Source: Candidatus Latescibacterota bacterium
Lineage (GTDB): Bacteria; Latescibacterota; UBA2968
Assembly: GCA_965198115.1 (NCBI GenBank)
Contig: OZ240241.1
Span: forward strand, 2,624,001 to 2,688,000
Reading direction: 5' to 3'
DNA: 64,000 bases
Shown here: in pieces, positions 35,300 to 44,916 of the stretch
Layout of the letters: each line of letters opens with the position of its first letter
Numbering within the stretch: the first letter of the stretch is position 1
Translations under genes and position numbers: made by a program
The notes under the pieces: generated by a model
The model's input: the letters and a program-made list of their open reading frames with translations, nothing else
Database searches by the model: none
Told to the model about the DNA's origin: nothing

Positions 35300-35354
35300 C
35301 GGGAATATAGGGTCAACCCGGGGGACGGTCAACTGGCGTTCTGAAATACGGGAG

Positions 35355-35825
35355 CTACGAAACCTGCGGTGAGGGCTGGGAATCCTGCTGCAAGAGGTCC
35401 CAGACGGCCCGAGGCGACGGACACCGGGGCAGCTGCTGCCGCACGGTCTGTTGACGGAGAAGCCGCGCCAACTCCGCAATCGTCTGGAGGTAGGCCTGAT
35501 CGTGTTTTTCCGGCCATCCAACCAGGACCAGAATGTTTACCCTCCGCCCGTCGTCCCAGTCTACGCCCGCCTCCGAAACCCCCATACCCACGACGGGCTC
35601 CAGAATACAGGCGTCCCTGCAGTGCGGAAGGGCCACACCGTGATCGACACCACTGCCAAGGTGGGATTCCTGGCGGAAAACCGCGGACAGAAAGCGACGG
35701 AGATCGGGAACACCCGGATGACCCTCGAAATGCGATGCAACCTCCCGGATCGCAGACTTCTTTCGCTCCGTCGTCAACGGGGCAACAATCCGGTCCGGGG
35801 TCAATAACTGCAGGAGTCTGGCCAT
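35355..35825 (-). CDS. PTS EIIA (Ntr/Fru-type) domain protein
   Basis: FLSAVFRQE..GSGVDHGVALPHCR retains the phospho-acceptor His; YLQTIAELARLL. Confidence 0.88.
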   Translation of the reverse strand: MARLLQLLTPDRIVAPLTTERKKSAIREVASHFEGHPGVPDLRRFLSAVFRQESHLGSGVDHGVALPHCRDACILEPVVGMGVSEAGVDWDDGRRVNILVLVGWPEKHDQAYLQTIAELARLLRQQTVRQQLPRCPSPRAVWDLLQQDSQPSPQVS

Positions 35826-35867
35826 CGCCGTCCTTGGTCCGGCTCTCGCTCGACGCTGGAGTCGCGC

Positions 35868-36722
35868 TTATGCCGGTTCCATCAAAGGCTCGAGGAGCGC
35901 GGCTCGGCGTGGATGCCGGAGCCGACTCAGCGCCTTCTCTTTGATCTGTCTGATCCGCTCGCGCGTCAGGTTGAAACGCACGCCGATCTCTTCCAGCGTC
36001 ATCGGCTCGTCGTCGCCACCCAGCCCGAAGTAGAGCCGCAGTACTTCCTGCTCGCGATCGCCGAGGGACTCGAGCACCTCTTCGACCTGCGTCTTGACGG
36101 AGTCCTCTACGACCTCCGTGTCGGGTGCCTGAAGCGTCGGATCGGGCAGAACGTTCAGTAACGAATGATCGTCGTCCTCCTTGAACGTCGCGTCGAGCGA
36201 CCAGACGTCTCTCGCCCGCATGAGCGTGTCCTTTACCATCTCCTCCGACACACCCAGCTCCTTCGCGATCACTTCGGGTTCAGGCTCAGCCTCGGTCGTC
36301 TGACGCAGCTCGCGTGAGACCTTGGAAATGTTGTGGAGGAGATCGATCCGATTGATCGGTAGCCTGACCACGCGAGAATCCTGGGCGAGGCTCTGGTGGA
36401 TGGCTTGTCGAATCCACCAGACCGCATACGAAATGAACTTGAATCCCCGGTTCCCGTCAAATCGTTCTGCGGCCGTCATCAAACCGACGTTTCCAGCGCT
36501 TATCAGGTCGGAAAGAGGCACACCGTGGTTCTGATACTCCCTGGCAACACTCACGACAAACCGCAGGTTGGCTTGAACAAGCTCGTCGCGCGCCCTCTGG
36601 TTGCCCTTTCGGATCCGGCGGGCCAGTTCGACTTCCTCCTGGCCCGAGAGGGGCTCTGAACCCGAAATGTCCCGCAAGTAGAGATCGAGCGATTCGCTGT
36701 CCTGAATGGTAATGCTGGCCAA
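35868..36722 (-). CDS. RNA polymerase sigma factor, RpoD/SigA family lacking region 1.1 (Bacteroidota-type)
   Basis: SLDLYLRDI, ANLRFVVSVA, DLISAGNVGL, FKFISYAVWWIRQ, and TLEEIG..LTRERIRQIKEKAL; AGGAGG RBS before the TTG start. Confidence 0.93.
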   Translation of the reverse strand: MASITIQDSESLDLYLRDISGSEPLSGQEEVELARRIRKGNQRARDELVQANLRFVVSVAREYQNHGVPLSDLISAGNVGLMTAAERFDGNRGFKFISYAVWWIRQAIHQSLAQDSRVVRLPINRIDLLHNISKVSRELRQTTEAEPEPEVIAKELGVSEEMVKDTLMRARDVWSLDATFKEDDDHSLLNVLPDPTLQAPDTEVVEDSVKTQVEEVLESLGDREQEVLRLYFGLGGDDEPMTLEEIGVRFNLTRERIRQIKEKALSRLRHPRRAALLEPLMEPA

Positions 36723-36765
36723 AGCTGAAACCTCCTGAGTACCGTCCTGACGTTAGCCGTGTCTT

Positions 36766-37297
36766 TCAGGCCAACATCCCGTCACGGTGATTTGAGTTGA
36801 TCACGTGCTCATACATCGCTTCCGGCGTCGAACTGGCCACGAGGCCCGCTCTCAAGTCCGGGTCGGCGAAGCGGTGCGTCATCGCCGAAAGAAAGGGCAG
36901 ATACGATTCGGATTCCGTGTGTGGGAATGGCGAAAAGACAGATCAGGTGGACAACTCGCGGCTCTGCGACCGAACCGAGGTTGATGCCCTCGCGAGACAA
37001 TCCGACCGCGGCCCCCAGTCGTCGCACGGATCGACTCCGCGCGTGGGGAAACGCCACACCCGAATCGACGACCGTGCTCTGAAGATCTTCGCGTTCCAAA
37101 ACGGCTTGTAGAAAACCGAGACTGTCGTCCACCCATCCAGTTTCGTGCATCGGATCGACCAGCTCCTTGATCGCGCCCATGCGGTCCATTGACACGAGAT
37201 CGGGCACCATCAGTCGCGGGTCGACCCAGGCGCGCAAACCGTCGCTGGTGACCTCGGTCCGCGTCAGGTAGACTGGAGAATGTTCTAGATAGTGCAA
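36766..37297 (-). CDS. PTS EIIA (Ntr/Fru-type) domain protein (frameshift near 36915; start uncertain)
   Basis: FLQAVLERE...STVVDSGVAFPHARS retains the His. After AIPTH the shifted frame reads SESYLPFLSAMTHRFADPDLRAGL...* ending at 36766. Confidence 0.82.
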
Positions 37298-37419
37298 AAT
37301 TTGCGCTTTTGGGATGGGCGTGAGAGAAGTGGCGTCACGAATTCCACTGGTTTCGTGTCGAATCGGGCTGACTGAATAGGGTGGGGATTCGGGGCCGGAC
37401 CCGGTTCTCTACCACTCTC

Positions 37420-37434
37420 GCAAGTTTGGTGCCA
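37420..37434 (-). promoter_or_regulatory. sigma54 (-24/-12) promoter
   Basis: TGGCAC-CAAAC-TTGC on the minus strand with exact consensus spacing. Confidence 0.82.
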
Positions 37435-37453
37435 CGGATTGGACATATGCTCA

Positions 37454-37466
37454 TAAGTTATTGATA
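37454..37466 (-). promoter_or_regulatory. IHF-binding site
   Basis: TATCAATAACTTA matches WATCAANNNNTTR and lies between the sigma54 promoter and the UAS. Confidence 0.72.
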
Positions 37467-37533
37467 GATATAAAAATATCTCTTAGGGGCCCGATTTCAG
37501 CAGGTCCAGAAGAGGTCTCGATTCCTTCGGATC

Positions 37534-37580
37534 GTGCAAATTTTGCACCCTCCGAACAGAGTTCTTGCGCAATTATTGCA
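37534..37580. promoter_or_regulatory. Tandem palindromic upstream activator sites
   Basis: GTGCAAATTTTGCAC (37534-37548) and GCAATTATTGC (37569-37579) have cores 33 bp apart; a third copy GCAAAATTTGC is at 37294-37304. Confidence 0.7.
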
Positions 37581-37581
37581 T

Positions 37582-38940
37582 CTAATGGTCACTCTTCATT
37601 TTTTTAAGTTTGTATTGTAGACTTCGAACGCTGATCCCCAGAATCTCTGCGGCCTCCTTCCGGTTAGACGTCACGTGCTCGAGTGTCTCCTCGATCAGTC
37701 GACGCTCCATCTCCGCGATCGAGCTGCCGAGTTGTAGGGTCATCACGTCGGACTGCGGAGTTGCCGGCCGAATGTGGGACGGCAAACCCTCTGAACCCAC
37801 TTCCCGATCCTGACTCGTCACGACAAGACGCTCGATGGCGTTCTTCAGTTCACGCACGTTCCCCGGCCAGCCGTATTCGAGCATCTGTTGTGTCGCCTGT
37901 TCAGTCAAATGCTTGCGTGCTTTGTGATGCAATGCACAGAGCTGATCGAGAAAGGTCTCGATCAGAAAGGGCAGATCTTCCCTGCGGTCTCTGAGCGGGG
38001 GAATCCGAATCGGCACCACGTTGATCCGGTAATAGAGATCTTCACGAAATCGACCCTGCTCGACTTCGTGTTCAAGATCCCGGTTGGTGGCAAAGATGAT
38101 TCGTGCATCGAGCGACACAGACTTCGTCGACCCGACCGGCGTGAACGACCGCTCTTCCAGCACACGCAGCAGATCGACCTGATTGGGCAGGGGGATCTCG
38201 CCCACCTCGTCCAGGAACAACGTGCCTCTGTCTGCTTCGCCCAGGATCCCCCTCCTGTCCGCCACCGCACCCGTGAAGGCTCCTCGGACGTGACCGAACA
38301 ACTCGGCCGCGAACAGGGACTCGGGTATGGCACCACAGTTGGTCGGAACAAGGGGGCCGCCCGAGCGGCGTGATCGTTGATGGATGGCACGGGCGACCAA
38401 CTCCTTGCCCGTCCCCGTTTCGCCGTGCACGAGCACCGGGACGTCGGTCATCGCCGCCTGCTCGATCGTATCGCAGACCTCCTGCATGACCGAACTGCGT
38501 CGGACGATCACATCCAGCGCATCTCCCGAATCGAGGCGCGCGCGTAGCTCTTTGTTCTCCTCGACAAGAGCCTGGTGCTCCAAAAGACGACTGAGTGAGA
38601 GCCTGAGCCGCTTGATATCCACGGGCTTCGTTAAGAAATCGAAAGCTCCCAGCCGCATTGCGTCGACGGCTGTGGAAATCTCACCATACGCCGTAATCAT
38701 GATCACCCCGGTCTCGGGGGACCGTTCCACCACCCTCTTCAGCAGAGACAGACCGTCGACACCGGGCATGCGCAGGTCGAGGATGGCGGCGCTGTAGGTG
38801 CGCCGATCGAGCAGGTTCGTGGCCTCTCGTCCGTCGTGGGCGACCTCGACGCGATGGCCCTCCCTCTCGAGGCTTTCACGTAGCCCCTGGCAGATGTGAT
38901 ACTCGTCGTCGGCGATCAGGATGGGAGCGTCACCTGCCAC
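37582..38940 (-). CDS. sigma54-dependent response regulator (NtrC/AtoC family: REC-AAA+-Fis HTH)
   Basis: ILIADDE, LDLRMPG, GETGTGKE, ELFGH..GAFTGA, FLDEVGE, FREDLYYR, WPGNVREL and AAEILGIS. The GTG start overlaps the kinase stop. Confidence 0.95.
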   Translation of the reverse strand: MAGDAPILIADDEYHICQGLRESLEREGHRVEVAHDGREATNLLDRRTYSAAILDLRMPGVDGLSLLKRVVERSPETGVIMITAYGEISTAVDAMRLGAFDFLTKPVDIKRLRLSLSRLLEHQALVEENKELRARLDSGDALDVIVRRSSVMQEVCDTIEQAAMTDVPVLVHGETGTGKELVARAIHQRSRRSGGPLVPTNCGAIPESLFAAELFGHVRGAFTGAVADRRGILGEADRGTLFLDEVGEIPLPNQVDLLRVLEERSFTPVGSTKSVSLDARIIFATNRDLEHEVEQGRFREDLYYRINVVPIRIPPLRDRREDLPFLIETFLDQLCALHHKARKHLTEQATQQMLEYGWPGNVRELKNAIERLVVTSQDREVGSEGLPSHIRPATPQSDVMTLQLGSSIAEMERRLIEETLEHVTSNRKEAAEILGISVRSLQYKLKKMKSDH

Positions 38941-40033
38941 GTGTCCGCGCTCCAGTAAGGTCGGCGTCAGCACGGTGGTCGGCGCCGATCGGGAGGGTAA
39001 GCGTGAACCGTGTTCCCTCCGGTGGCTTGCTCTCGACTTCGATACGACCGCCGTGTTCGTAGATCACACGCTGGGCGATCGACAAACCCATTCCGGTACC
39101 TTCTGCTTTCGTCGTGTAGTAGAGCTCGAAAACCCGATCGAGATCGACCGGGTCGATGCCGTGGCCGTCGTCGACCAGCGTCACCTTGATCGTGCCAGTT
39201 TCACAGTCGAGCGACGTCGTCGCGCGGAGGCTGCCGGTTCCTTCGATCGCGTGGAAGGCGTTGACCGCGAGATTGAGGATCGCCTGGCCGAGCTGGTTCT
39301 CGTCCCCTTCGATCGGCGGCAGGTCCGACGCGAGATCCAGTTCGAGTCGAACGCCGTATTCTCTCGCCTCCGGAGTCACGAGCTCGAAGACACGACGAAT
39401 CACGTCGTTCAGGTTCAGCGAAGCGAGTTCGAGCTGCGGGCTGCGGGAAAACCGAAGAAAGTTTCCGACGATTCGATCCAGCCGCTTGATCTCGGCGTCC
39501 GCCACGGCCAGCCTCCGAAGAAGAGACGCACGAATCTCCTCGTCGAGACCGTCGGCATCTTCGGCCAGCAGCTGAAGCTGGATGTTGACCGCGCCCAACG
39601 GGTTTCGAACCTCGTGCGCAACCGAAGCGGCAAGACGACCCAGGGCATTCATCCTTTCTGCCTGAAACATCTCCCGTTCCAGCCGTCTGAGATCCGACAC
39701 ATCGCGAAGCACGACGACCACGCCCTCGTCGCCGTCAAAGTCGAGTGTCGAAGTGTTGACTCGCAGGGGGCAAGGGCCCGCAGGCCCCTCGAACGTCACG
39801 TCTCGATGGTTCGCGTGCCTTCCCTCGTTCAGCGCCGCAGCCACGGTCGTTTTGATCTCGTCGCATCCCTCGAACAAGATCTCATAGTCCATATTCTCGG
39901 GGTGCCCATCCATACCAGTCAGCTCAATCACGTAACGATTGGCGGAGAGAACACGGCCGCTGCTCGAAACGGCCAGTATCCCCTCGCTGAGACTGTCGAG
40001 AATCGTCTGGTTGCGGTCCTGGAGTGTTTTCAC
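38930..40033 (-). CDS. Cytoplasmic PAS-domain histidine kinase (NtrB/AtoS-like)
   Basis: ILDSLSEGIL PAS domain, VAHEVRNPL, QAILNLAVNA, DDGHGI and TTKAEGTGMGL; no TM segment. Confidence 0.92.
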   Translation of the reverse strand: MKTLQDRNQTILDSLSEGILAVSSSGRVLSANRYVIELTGMDGHPENMDYEILFEGCDEIKTTVAAALNEGRHANHRDVTFEGPAGPCPLRVNTSTLDFDGDEGVVVVLRDVSDLRRLEREMFQAERMNALGRLAASVAHEVRNPLGAVNIQLQLLAEDADGLDEEIRASLLRRLAVADAEIKRLDRIVGNFLRFSRSPQLELASLNLNDVIRRVFELVTPEAREYGVRLELDLASDLPPIEGDENQLGQAILNLAVNAFHAIEGTGSLRATTSLDCETGTIKVTLVDDGHGIDPVDLDRVFELYYTTKAEGTGMGLSIAQRVIYEHGGRIEVESKPPEGTRFTLTLPIGADHRADADLTGARTRGR

Positions 40034-43326: not shown

Positions 43327-43695
43327 ATGGCACGACTACTCGTTGCAGACGACGACAAAAACCTGGCCCTGCTCTACGAGCAGGAACTGACCGATGTGGG
43401 CTACGACGTCGATGTCGTGCACGACGCGCGGCAGGCGATCGCCCGGGTCGAGTCGGACCCGCCCGATCTGCTCATCCTGGACATTCAGATGCCGGGAATG
43501 GACGGGATCGAGGCGCTCAGCCACATCCTGGGGAAGAACAATCAGCTGCCCGTCATCCTCAACACCGCCTACAGCAACTATAAAGACAACTTCATGACCT
43601 GGTCGGCCGACGCGTATGTGGTGAAATCCTCGGACCTGACCGAGCTGAAGACCACGATCGAGAGCATCCTCGAGCAACGATCTAACCATGCCTGA
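43327..43695 (+). CDS. Single-domain response regulator (receiver only)
   Basis: LLVADDD, ILDIQMPGMDG, LNTAY and ADAYVVKS. Confidence 0.92.
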   Translation: MARLLVADDDKNLALLYEQELTDVGYDVDVVHDARQAIARVESDPPDLLILDIQMPGMDGIEALSHILGKNNQLPVILNTAYSNYKDNFMTWSADAYVVKSSDLTELKTTIESILEQRSNHA

Positions 43696-44916
43696 TGTGC
43701 CCGAACGAGCTCCCCTCCACCTCCTCCAGAACACGCTCACGTTCCTGCTCGCGGGCGGCCAGGGGGAACGACTCTACCCGCTCACCCGCGACAGGGCCAA
43801 GCCGGCGGTGCCTTTCGGGGGCGTCTACCGGATCGTCGACTTCACGCTCTCGAACTGCCTGAACTCGCATCTTCGCAAAATCTACGTGCTCACCCAGTAC
43901 CGCTCGAGCTCGCTCGACCACCACATTCAGGGTGGCTGGTCGATCCTTTCTCCGGAGCTCGGAGAATACGTGTTCACACTCCCCCCGCAGCTTCGACTGG
44001 CACAGAACTGGTATCGGGGAACGGCCGACGCCATCCTGCACAATCTCTACGTCCTCGAGCAGGAGCGTCCCGAGCGCGTCCTGATCGTGTCCGGCGATCA
44101 CGTCTACAAGATGGACTACGGTGCCATGGTGGCACGTCACCACGCCGCGCACGCCGAACTCACGATTGCCTGCATCGAGGTTCCTCTCGATGTAGCTCCG
44201 GAGCTCGGCATCATGCAGATCGATTCCGAAGGCCGAATCATCGGCTTCGAAGAAAAGCCCCAGAACCCGAAGCCCCTTCCCGGCAGCACCACGCACGCGC
44301 TGGCGTCCATGGGGGTCTACGTTTTCGAAACGGAGATCCTCGCCCGATACGTCTCCGAAGACGCCAAACGCGATACCGCCCACGATTTTGGAAAAAACAT
44401 CATCCCCGCCGTCGTAAAAAACGGGCAGGCCTTCGCATTCAACTTCAAAGACGGCAACCGCAACCCGACCGTCTACTGGCGAGACATCGGACTACTCGAC
44501 GCCTACTGGCAGGCCCACATGGACCTCGTCGAACCCGAACCGCCGTTCGACCTGTTCGATCCATCGTGGCCGATCCGGACCTACAATCCCCCGTGCCCGC
44601 CGACCGCCGCTCCGGCGAAGAAGGGGGCGTTCGTCACAGCATCATTTCGGGGGGGTGTATCATCCGGCGTGCCGACGTAACCCGATGCGTCCTGTCGAAC
44701 CGCGTCACCGTCGACCAGGGAGCCAAGCTGGAACAGTCCGTACTCTTGGAGGGCGCCAGAGTCGAACCGGGCGCGGAAGTGCGTCGCGCCATTCTCGACG
44801 AAGGCGTCAGGGTATCGTCGAACGCACGGATCGGGGTCGATCCGGCAAAGGACCGCGAACGCTTCACGACCACGCAGGGAGGTGTGGTCGTCGTTCCCAA
44901 GGGCATGGCGCTATAA
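43688..44916 (+). CDS. glgC: Glucose-1-phosphate adenylyltransferase (frameshift near 44603)
   Basis: LAGGQGERLYPLTRDRAKPAVPFGG, WYRGTADA, GDHVYKMDY, FEEKP and YWRDIG. The C-terminal beta-helix (SIISGGCII...GGVVVVPKG*) is in ORF 44566..44916. Confidence 0.92.

What the first reader, a model, noticed from the sequence alone, without database searches (positions are those of the whole stretch)
35355..40033. Candidate new signalling cascade: two-component system to sigma54 promoter to EIIA-sigma70-EIIA operon
Seen: a PAS kinase and an NtrC-type activator with intact GAFTGA. Immediately downstream lie two GCAA-N3-TTGC palindromes 33 bp apart, a perfect IHF site and a perfect TGGCAC-N5-TTGC element. 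All face a three-gene operon in which a sigma factor is flanked by two PTS EIIA proteins that both keep the PH phospho-His. Known: this UAS-IHF-(-24/-12) layout is the standard sigma54 enhancer architecture, and EIIA(Ntr) proteins act by phosphorylation-dependent protein binding. Inference: a self-contained sigma54-to-sigma70 cascade in which the EIIA pair may modulate the sigma factor as anti-sigma-like or kinase-binding partners. I do not know of a described system with this layout.
Basis: partly seen in the sequence, partly recalled or inferred. Interest (0 to 1): 0.85.

Follow-up and report, generated by a model that had tools for sequence, protein, structure and literature searches.

The report
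PTS-tuned kinase switch for sigma factor
Across most of one class of uncultured Latescibacterota bacteria, a sensor kinase and a sigma54 activator sit directly upstream of a conserved promoter that likely switches on a spare housekeeping-like sigma factor together with a small phosphotransferase (PTS EIIA) protein, and that protein is predicted to dock back onto the kinase, which would tie the switch to the cell's carbon/energy state.

Summary
The promoter pattern (palindrome plus -24/-12) occurs in 107 of 168 phylum genomes, control 0. The conserved unit is kinase, activator, promoter, EIIA1, sigma. EIIA2 orthologues occur in only 9 genomes and lack the active-site Arg. In this window EIIA1 is frameshifted, and read contigs agree with the assembly.

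EIIA1 tracks the kinase, not the sigma: 83 genomes have both, 41 neither, 10 are discordant (8 are contig breaks). The two were co-lost at least 6 times while activator, promoter and sigma stayed. The receiver motif is canonical in 35 of 35 intact loci and 2 of 11 loss loci. A kinase-core:EIIA1 model scored 0.66 (best control 0.00) through family-invariant EIIA1 surface residues.

Best reading: a sigma54-to-sigma70 cascade whose own output EIIA1 likely feeds back on the kinase. Known parts (Borrelia Rrp2-RpoN-RpoS; PtsN-KdpD/PhoR), a combination not found in my searches. No expression or bench evidence.

The parts
38930..40033 (-). Soluble PAS-HisKA-HATPase histidine kinase, AtoS-like (best NCBIfam hit, below cut-off); start at 40033 inferred
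   Evidence: orthologues in 87 genomes
37582..38973 (-). Sigma54 enhancer-binding response regulator (REC-AAA+ with GAFTGA-Fis HTH), AtoC-like (below cut-off)
37568..37580 (.). Palindrome 1 (TGCA-N5-TGCA type), likely activator site, 146 bp upstream of the -24 element
   Evidence: present in 18 of 18 own-order loci
37535..37547 (.). Palindrome 2, likely main upstream activator site, 113 bp upstream of the -24 element
   Evidence: at -109 to -114 in 52 of 66 pattern loci (the pattern itself limited the range)
37454..37466 (-). IHF-consensus site in an AT-rich stretch
   Evidence: at most 1 mismatch in 24 of 51 core loci against 2 of 50 control segments
37420..37434 (-). Sigma54 -24/-12 promoter element; start site predicted near 37408
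37293..37305 (.).
   Evidence: a downstream copy in 51 of 51 core loci
36766..37297 (-). EIIA1, conserved PTS EIIA (Fru/Mtl/Ntr fold), predicted kinase-binding; frameshifted near 36915-36916 in this genome; start codon uncertain
35868..36722 (-). 284-aa RpoD-like sigma70 paralogue (regions 1.2, 2, 3, 4; no 1.1), separate from the likely housekeeping copy
35355..35825 (-). EIIA2, accessory EIIA with PH but without the conserved Arg

Best explanation
This is likely a conserved Latescibacterota sigma-factor switch in which a kinase-activated sigma54 enhancer protein would turn on an operon for a spare RpoD-like sigma factor and a PTS EIIA protein (EIIA1) that is predicted to dock on the same kinase's ATPase domain and so feed back on its own activation. 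Steps: (1) shown: gene order, motifs and their conservation. (2) inferred: the kinase phosphorylates the activator, which binds the TGCA-N5-TGCA sites on both sides of the promoter and, helped by an IHF/HU-family bend, opens the sigma54 promoter. (3) inferred: the new sigma, whose regions 2.4 and 4.2 are near-identical to the likely housekeeping sigma, competes for RNA polymerase and shifts transcription. (4) predicted: EIIA1 binds the kinase catalytic domain through helices beside, not at, its phospho-His. (5) inferred: EI/HPr phosphorylation of EIIA1 gates that binding, so PEP/carbon status tunes the switch. By analogy with PtsN-KdpD and PtsN-PhoR I commit to stimulation by unphosphorylated EIIA1 (positive feedback, about 55% given binding), with the downstream site as a possible brake. 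EIIA2 is an accessory gene, and in this genome the EIIA1 arm is probably broken.
For: Promoter pattern in 107 of 168 phylum genomes, reversed control 0. Of 66 pattern loci examined, 51 are the core locus, 4 drive a duplicate sigma, 6 a short sigma-region-4-like protein, 5 nothing recognised. Up- and downstream palindromes in 51 of 51 core loci against about 0.015 expected per 270 bp in the flanks. Locus sigmas fall in one clade apart from the likely housekeeping copy (support 0.94, one window-genome paralogue inside). EIIA1 in 89 of 168 genomes. Among 134 genomes, 83 have EIIA1 and kinase, 41 neither, 6 and 4 discordant; 8 discordant cases are contig breaks and 1 has both with a split kinase. 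At least 6 independent co-losses on a 46-tip activator tree; receiver motif canonical in 35 of 35 against 2 of 11. EI is kept in 4 of 5 loss genomes tested, so PTS loss does not explain it. Four loci of two genera have a kinase with no sensor domain yet keep EIIA1. Complex model: score 0.66, best of 3 controls 0.00; the mark was reached by 116 of 157 solved and 2 of 215 mismatched pairs (roughly valid here); runs agree in at least 75% of contacts, partner pLDDT at least 82. Interface residues K21, L37, Q41, L44 are invariant in 31 of 31 EIIA1 and are not found as a set in EIIA2 or the other PH-bearing EIIAs compared. PH kept in 40 of 40 and 120 of 120 EIIA1 homologues. EI, HPr and HprK present, no PF02378 EIIC found.
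Against: No transcript, start-site, DNA-binding or protein-binding data. The window's EIIA1 is frameshifted while its kinase is intact, and G134 has a broken kinase with intact EIIA1. Co-loss cannot separate kinase from receiver domain as partner. On the kinase side only 3 of 15 interface residues are family-specific against 14 of 153 overall, which is weak. The modelled surface is the ATPase domain, whereas PtsN is reported to bind HisKA (E. coli) or GAF (S. fredii) of KdpD (PMC9239096, passages). No gene passes the IHF-alpha cut-off, although five HU/IHF-family genes exist. EIIA1 has no conserved start codon or ribosome site. Related genomes are not independent, so the 2x2 p-value overstates.
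Confidence: 0.6

Rival explanations
1. The cascade is as described, but EIIA1 acts on the activator's receiver domain (binding it, or passing or removing phosphate) and not on the kinase.
For: The receiver motif decays in the same lineages that lose EIIA1 (2 of 11 canonical). EIIA1 keeps its phospho-His and Arg.
Against: The kinase:EIIA1 model passes with controls at 0.00 and uses the invariant EIIA1 surface. G151 lost EIIA1 with a decayed kinase while its receiver is still canonical.
Confidence: 0.12
2. EIIA1 is only an output gene with a target elsewhere (for example a transporter); co-loss reflects general decay of the signalling arm and the model reflects family likeness.
For: PtsN-type proteins have many partners (PMC13104625, passages). 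Two single-sided breaks exist (window, G134). Kinase-side specificity is weak.
Against: Six independent deletions remove exactly these two non-adjacent genes and spare the activator, promoter and sigma between and beside them. None of the 23 PDB hits is named as a kinase or kinase complex (molecule names only).
Confidence: 0.13
3. One reading: one or both EIIA proteins bind the sigma factor as phosphorylation-gated anti-sigma factors.
For: Both genes flank the sigma with short gaps and no terminator-like site between. EIIA2 survives in genus g8, where kinase and EIIA1 are gone, so it is not tied to the kinase.
Against: The sigma persists without EIIA1 in 11 loci and without EIIA2 in most. EIIA2's closer relatives in other families lie in unrelated contexts.
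Confidence: 0.1
4. The palindromes are bound by another regulator, not by the adjacent activator.
For: No binding data. Some copies lie within or far into the transcribed region.
Against: Position relative to -24 is tightly kept. The activator's recognition helix is nearly invariant. E. coli AtoC, the best-scoring family, binds a similar site with a spacer one base longer (PMC3118216, Table 5 passage).
Confidence: 0.05

Closest known systems
Borrelia burgdorferi Hk2-Rrp2-RpoN-RpoS cascade (PMC7649798, passages read)
   Same: Adjacent kinase and sigma54 activator drive a sigma54 promoter for a sigma70-family factor; the kinase can be dispensable.
   Different: Here activator and target are neighbours, clear palindromic sites flank the promoter, the sigma is an RpoD-like paralogue below the RpoS cut-off, and an EIIA is co-encoded and co-lost with the kinase.
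PtsN (EIIA-Ntr) regulation of KdpD and PhoR (PMC9239096, PMC13104625, passages read)
   Same: A stand-alone EIIA of the Fru/Mtl/Ntr fold, no sugar permease found, binding a histidine kinase; rhizobia also encode a ptsN copy in the kdp cluster.
   Different: EIIA1 is its own subfamily, lies in the kinase's output operon (feedback), is predicted to bind the ATPase domain, and controls a sigma factor, not a transporter regulon.
E. coli AtoS-AtoC (PMC3118216, passages read)
   Same: Best NCBIfam hits for both proteins; TGCA half-site palindromes upstream of a sigma54 promoter.
   Different: Scores far below the family cut-offs, soluble kinase, spacer of 5 not 6, no ato genes, sites also downstream.
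Pseudomonas syringae HrpR/S-RpoN-HrpL (search listing and recall only)
   Same: Sigma54 activators switch on an alternative sigma factor.
   Different: HrpL is an ECF sigma and HrpR/S have no receiver or kinase (recalled); no EIIA.

Membership tests
Sigma54-dependent promoter with enhancer | -24/-12 element GG-N10-GC | tested here: met
   conserved in 51 core loci
Sigma54-dependent promoter with enhancer | rpoN in the genome | tested here: met
   TIGR02395 over cut-off
Sigma54-dependent promoter with enhancer | Activator with GAFTGA and conserved upstream sites about 100-150 bp away | tested here: met
Sigma54-dependent promoter with enhancer | IHF site and IHF protein | tested here: inconclusive
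   site conserved; five HU/IHF-family genes, none over the himA cut-off
Sigma54-dependent promoter with enhancer | Transcription start 12 nt downstream, dependent on RpoN | not testable with these tools
   no RNA holder listed
AtoS/AtoC | NCBIfam equivalog cut-off | tested here: not met
   281 of 646 and 446 of 714 bits
NtrB/NtrC | NCBIfam equivalog cut-off | tested here: not met
   108 of 240 and 393 of 559 bits
RpoS / Borrelia-type sigma54-sigmaS cascade | Target sigma is RpoS | tested here: not met
   TIGR02394 260 of 379 bits; RpoD models also below cut-off
PtsN (EIIA-Ntr) | TIGR01419 cut-off and linkage to rpoN | tested here: not met
   EIIA2 49 of 139 bits, EIIA1 no hit; no EIIA in the rpoN neighbourhood
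PTS EIIA (Fru/Mtl/Ntr, PF00359) | Pfam match and phospho-His (PH) | tested here: met
PTS EIIA (Fru/Mtl/Ntr, PF00359) | Conserved Arg of the RE motif (role in holding the phosphate is recalled) | tested here: inconclusive
   invariant in 31 of 31 EIIA1; Gln or Lys in EIIA2
PTS EIIA (Fru/Mtl/Ntr, PF00359) | Phosphorylation by EI/HPr | not testable with these tools
   EI and HPr genes present
EIIA-regulated histidine kinase (KdpD/PhoR type) | Direct EIIA-kinase binding | tested here: inconclusive
   model supports it, 0.66 against 0.00; co-loss; no measurement
Anti-sigma factor | Binds and inhibits the co-encoded sigma | not tested
   the single complex job went to the kinase pair; phyletic pattern disfavours it for EIIA1

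The most novel reading that the evidence does not exclude
EIIA1 is a dedicated subfamily of PTS-derived kinase modulators: it docks on the ATPase domain of one cognate kinase through a surface beside its phospho-His, can be the kinase's only input where the PAS domain is gone, and is made from the operon that the kinase activates. That would be a PTS-gated feedback switch that swaps in a housekeeping-like sigma factor across most of a bacterial class, with activator sites on both sides of the promoter and a regulon made of sigma genes and sigma-region-4-only proteins.
Probability: 0.35. Interest if true: 0.8.

Novelty: new variant of a known kind. Interest (0 to 1): 0.62.

Why it matters
It gives a testable regulatory circuit for an uncultured phylum, kept across most of a class. 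It also offers a small, fully soluble EIIA-kinase pair with a predicted interface, a direct way to ask how PTS EIIA proteins switch histidine kinases; my search for such a structure listed none.

Tried and rejected
Sequencing error as the cause of the EIIA1 frameshift: contigs of X1 and X2 match with 0 gaps here and over the frameshifted glgC. They are one sample and may be the source; library type is not on record; X3 does not cover the site. The genome has other frameshifted paralogues and IS copies, so I take the break as probably real. A programmed frameshift is unlikely: the profile covers the orthologue in one piece in the other 88 genomes.
EIIA-sigma-EIIA as the conserved unit: rejected.
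Loss of the PTS as the cause of EIIA1 loss: rejected.
A wider regulon in the window's genome: no other sigma54-like site has the flanking palindromes.
Expression: no RNA holder listed.
Spread outside the phylum: of 46 loci in the genome collection, 42 were close (31 titled Latescibacter-, 5 Gemmatimonad-, 5 unnamed, 1 Planctomycetota) and 4 distant. The Planctomycete variant was found in 1 of 401 genomes searched, and its kinase could not be placed because the contig is cut.
Literature: no paper on this system (listings only; subscription papers not held; no supplements opened). Earlier scan findings: none.
Full report
Observation. The genes are as described: a PAS-HisKA-HATPase kinase, a REC-AAA+-HTH activator with GAFTGA, two PF00359 EIIA frames and a 284-aa sigma70 without region 1.1. 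The two palindromes, the IHF match and the -24/-12 element are at the stated places. The strict palindrome occurs three times in the 8.4 Mb genome, all in this locus; the third (37293-37305) lies downstream of the promoter and was missed. The first EIIA is frameshifted near 36915, one base longer than three orthologues. Contigs from two runs of one sample match with no gaps, so the break is probably real. rpoN, EI, HPr and HprK are present and no PF02378 EIIC was found.

Organism. Of 46 loci found with the EIIA1 alignment, 31 carry titles naming Latescibacter-, so I call the phylum Latescibacterota.

Conservation. A palindrome 90-118 bases before a -24/-12 element matches 107 of 168 phylum genomes with a reversed control of 0. 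A few hits are chance matches in coding DNA, and shorter spacings are missed. I examined 66 loci with the pattern (the window, 5 and 60 chosen by hand to cover genera). Of these, 51 are the core locus, 4 drive a duplicate sigma, 6 a short protein resembling sigma region 4 (3 scanned: all hit PF04545, one over cut-off) and 5 nothing I recognised. All 51 core loci have palindromes both upstream and downstream, 41 have three or more, against about 0.015 expected per 270 bp of flank. The proximal site sits at -109 to -114 in 52 of 66, with side groups near -103 and -122, which fits helical phasing, though the pattern bounded the range and kin are not independent. An IHF-like site with at most one mismatch is in 24 of 51 loci against 2 of 50 control segments, but no gene passes the IHF-alpha cut-off. 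E. coli AtoC, the best-scoring family (below cut-off), binds a similar site with one more spacer base (PMC3118216, passages).

The sigma. The genome has about ten RpoD-like genes. The locus sigmas form one clade (support 0.94, with one window-genome paralogue inside) apart from the copy at G000:4393532, which I take as housekeeping from recall of FCB-type primary sigmas. Regions 2.4 and 4.2 are nearly the same in both, so overlapping promoter choice is likely.

Which EIIA matters. EIIA1 is in 89 of 168 genomes. EIIA2 orthologues at 43% identity or more beside the sigma are in 9, with a remnant in G007. EIIA2 has Gln or Lys where EIIA1 and PtsN have the Arg of the RE motif. I compared EIIA1 with the kinase, taking 87 of the 94 genomes hit and dropping 7 whose only hits were long, more distant paralogues. 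Among 134 genomes (own class plus family f9), 83 have both, 41 neither, 6 EIIA1 only, 4 kinase only. Of the 10 discordant, 8 are contig breaks, G097 has both with a split kinase, and G134 has a broken kinase with intact EIIA1. The window is the opposite single-sided case. I read 11 of the 41 'neither' genomes at DNA level: activator, promoter, palindromes and sigma remain, and both non-adjacent genes are deleted or decayed. These are at least 6 independent events on a 46-tip activator tree, and the receiver motif is canonical in 35 of 35 intact against 2 of 11 loss loci. EI remains in 4 of 5 loss genomes tested; the fifth is 78% complete. In four loci of two genera the kinase has no sensor domain but EIIA1 stays.

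Complex model. The G001 kinase core (two copies) with EIIA1 scored 0.66 in three runs, best of 3 controls 0.00. The mark was reached by 116 of 157 solved and 2 of 215 mismatched pairs, counts that hold only roughly for this job; runs agree in at least 75% of contacts and partner pLDDT is at least 82. It supports binding and does not show it. EIIA1 uses residues 15-25, 36-48 and 86-88, away from H62 but around R46; K21, L37, Q41 and L44 are invariant in 31 of 31 and not found as a set in EIIA2 or the other PH-bearing EIIAs compared. The kinase surface is the ATPase domain; its family specificity is weak (3 of 15 against 14 of 153). None of 23 PDB hits is named as a kinase complex (names only), so a pass from memory is not excluded. 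A Planctomycete locus has a similar activator and sigma54 promoter before an EIIA1-like gene that keeps these four residues but has lost PH, with no sigma in the contig. This fits a module tied to the two-component pair, but its kinase is not on the contig.

Mechanism. Shown: anatomy, conservation, co-loss. Inferred: activator-driven sigma54 transcription of EIIA1 and sigma (about 90%). Predicted: EIIA1-kinase binding (about 70%). Inferred: gating by PTS phosphorylation, since PH is kept in 40 of 40 and 120 of 120 homologues. The sign is a guess by analogy: unphosphorylated PtsN binds KdpD and stimulates PhoR in E. coli, though the phosphorylated form is active in P. putida (PMC13104625, PMC9239096, passages). 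The signal sensed by the PAS domain and the sigma's regulon are unknown; glnA and glnD nearby are only a hint, as family f3 has other neighbours.

Comparison and novelty. A kinase-activator-RpoN-sigma cascade is known in Borrelia (PMC7649798, passages) and EIIA-kinase control is known for KdpD and PhoR. The system meets the cut-offs of none of these families. I found no description of the combination (listings only, open-access library, no supplements) or in earlier scan notes. Verdict: new variant of known kinds, interest 0.62.

Noticed in passing
L095, L110, L112, L114, L116, L118 (just downstream of the -24/-12 element): Second copies of the same promoter in family f3 drive 115-160 aa proteins resembling sigma70 region 4 alone, with a changed -35 recognition helix; possible decoys for RNA polymerase.
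   Followed up: partly
L097, L099, L101, L102: Second promoter copies drive a duplicated full sigma without activator or EIIA beside it.
   Followed up: partly
L184:1-1546: Planctomycete locus: similar activator, sigma54 promoter, EIIA1-like gene lacking PH, then an HTH-EIIA fusion and membrane genes that look hydrogenase-4-like (label recalled); small family of 7 clusters.
   Followed up: partly
G000:C1:6767136-6768046: Another sigma paralogue with a sigma54 element and an IHF match upstream; frameshifted near its end and followed by an IS-like gene.
   Followed up: no
window 43688-44916: glgC-like gene is split by a frameshift near 44650-44680; contigs of X1 and X2 agree.
   Followed up: partly
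L201 / L079 (family f9): Same genes, but two genes lie between activator and promoter, a transglycosylase SLT gene follows the promoter, and the downstream palindromes sit about 900-1010 bp away, just before EIIA1.
   Followed up: partly
window 35304-35332 (-): Sigma70-like promoter (10 of 12) just after EIIA2, pointing antisense through the ECF S-component gene toward the HU-family gene; at chance level.
   Followed up: no
L195 (G030): About 8.5 kb with its own sigma54-like element separates kinase and activator.
   Followed up: no
L037 (G051): The -24/-12 element is tandemly duplicated 20 bp apart.
   Followed up: no
L176: A record titled Planctomycetota carries the full layout with a sigma 90% identical to a family-f3 copy; mislabel or transfer.
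   Followed up: no
L105, L108, L109, L119, L124, L137 (downstream of the sigma): Family f3 loci are followed by a convergent UVR-motif gene and a GAF-type sigma54 activator.
   Followed up: no
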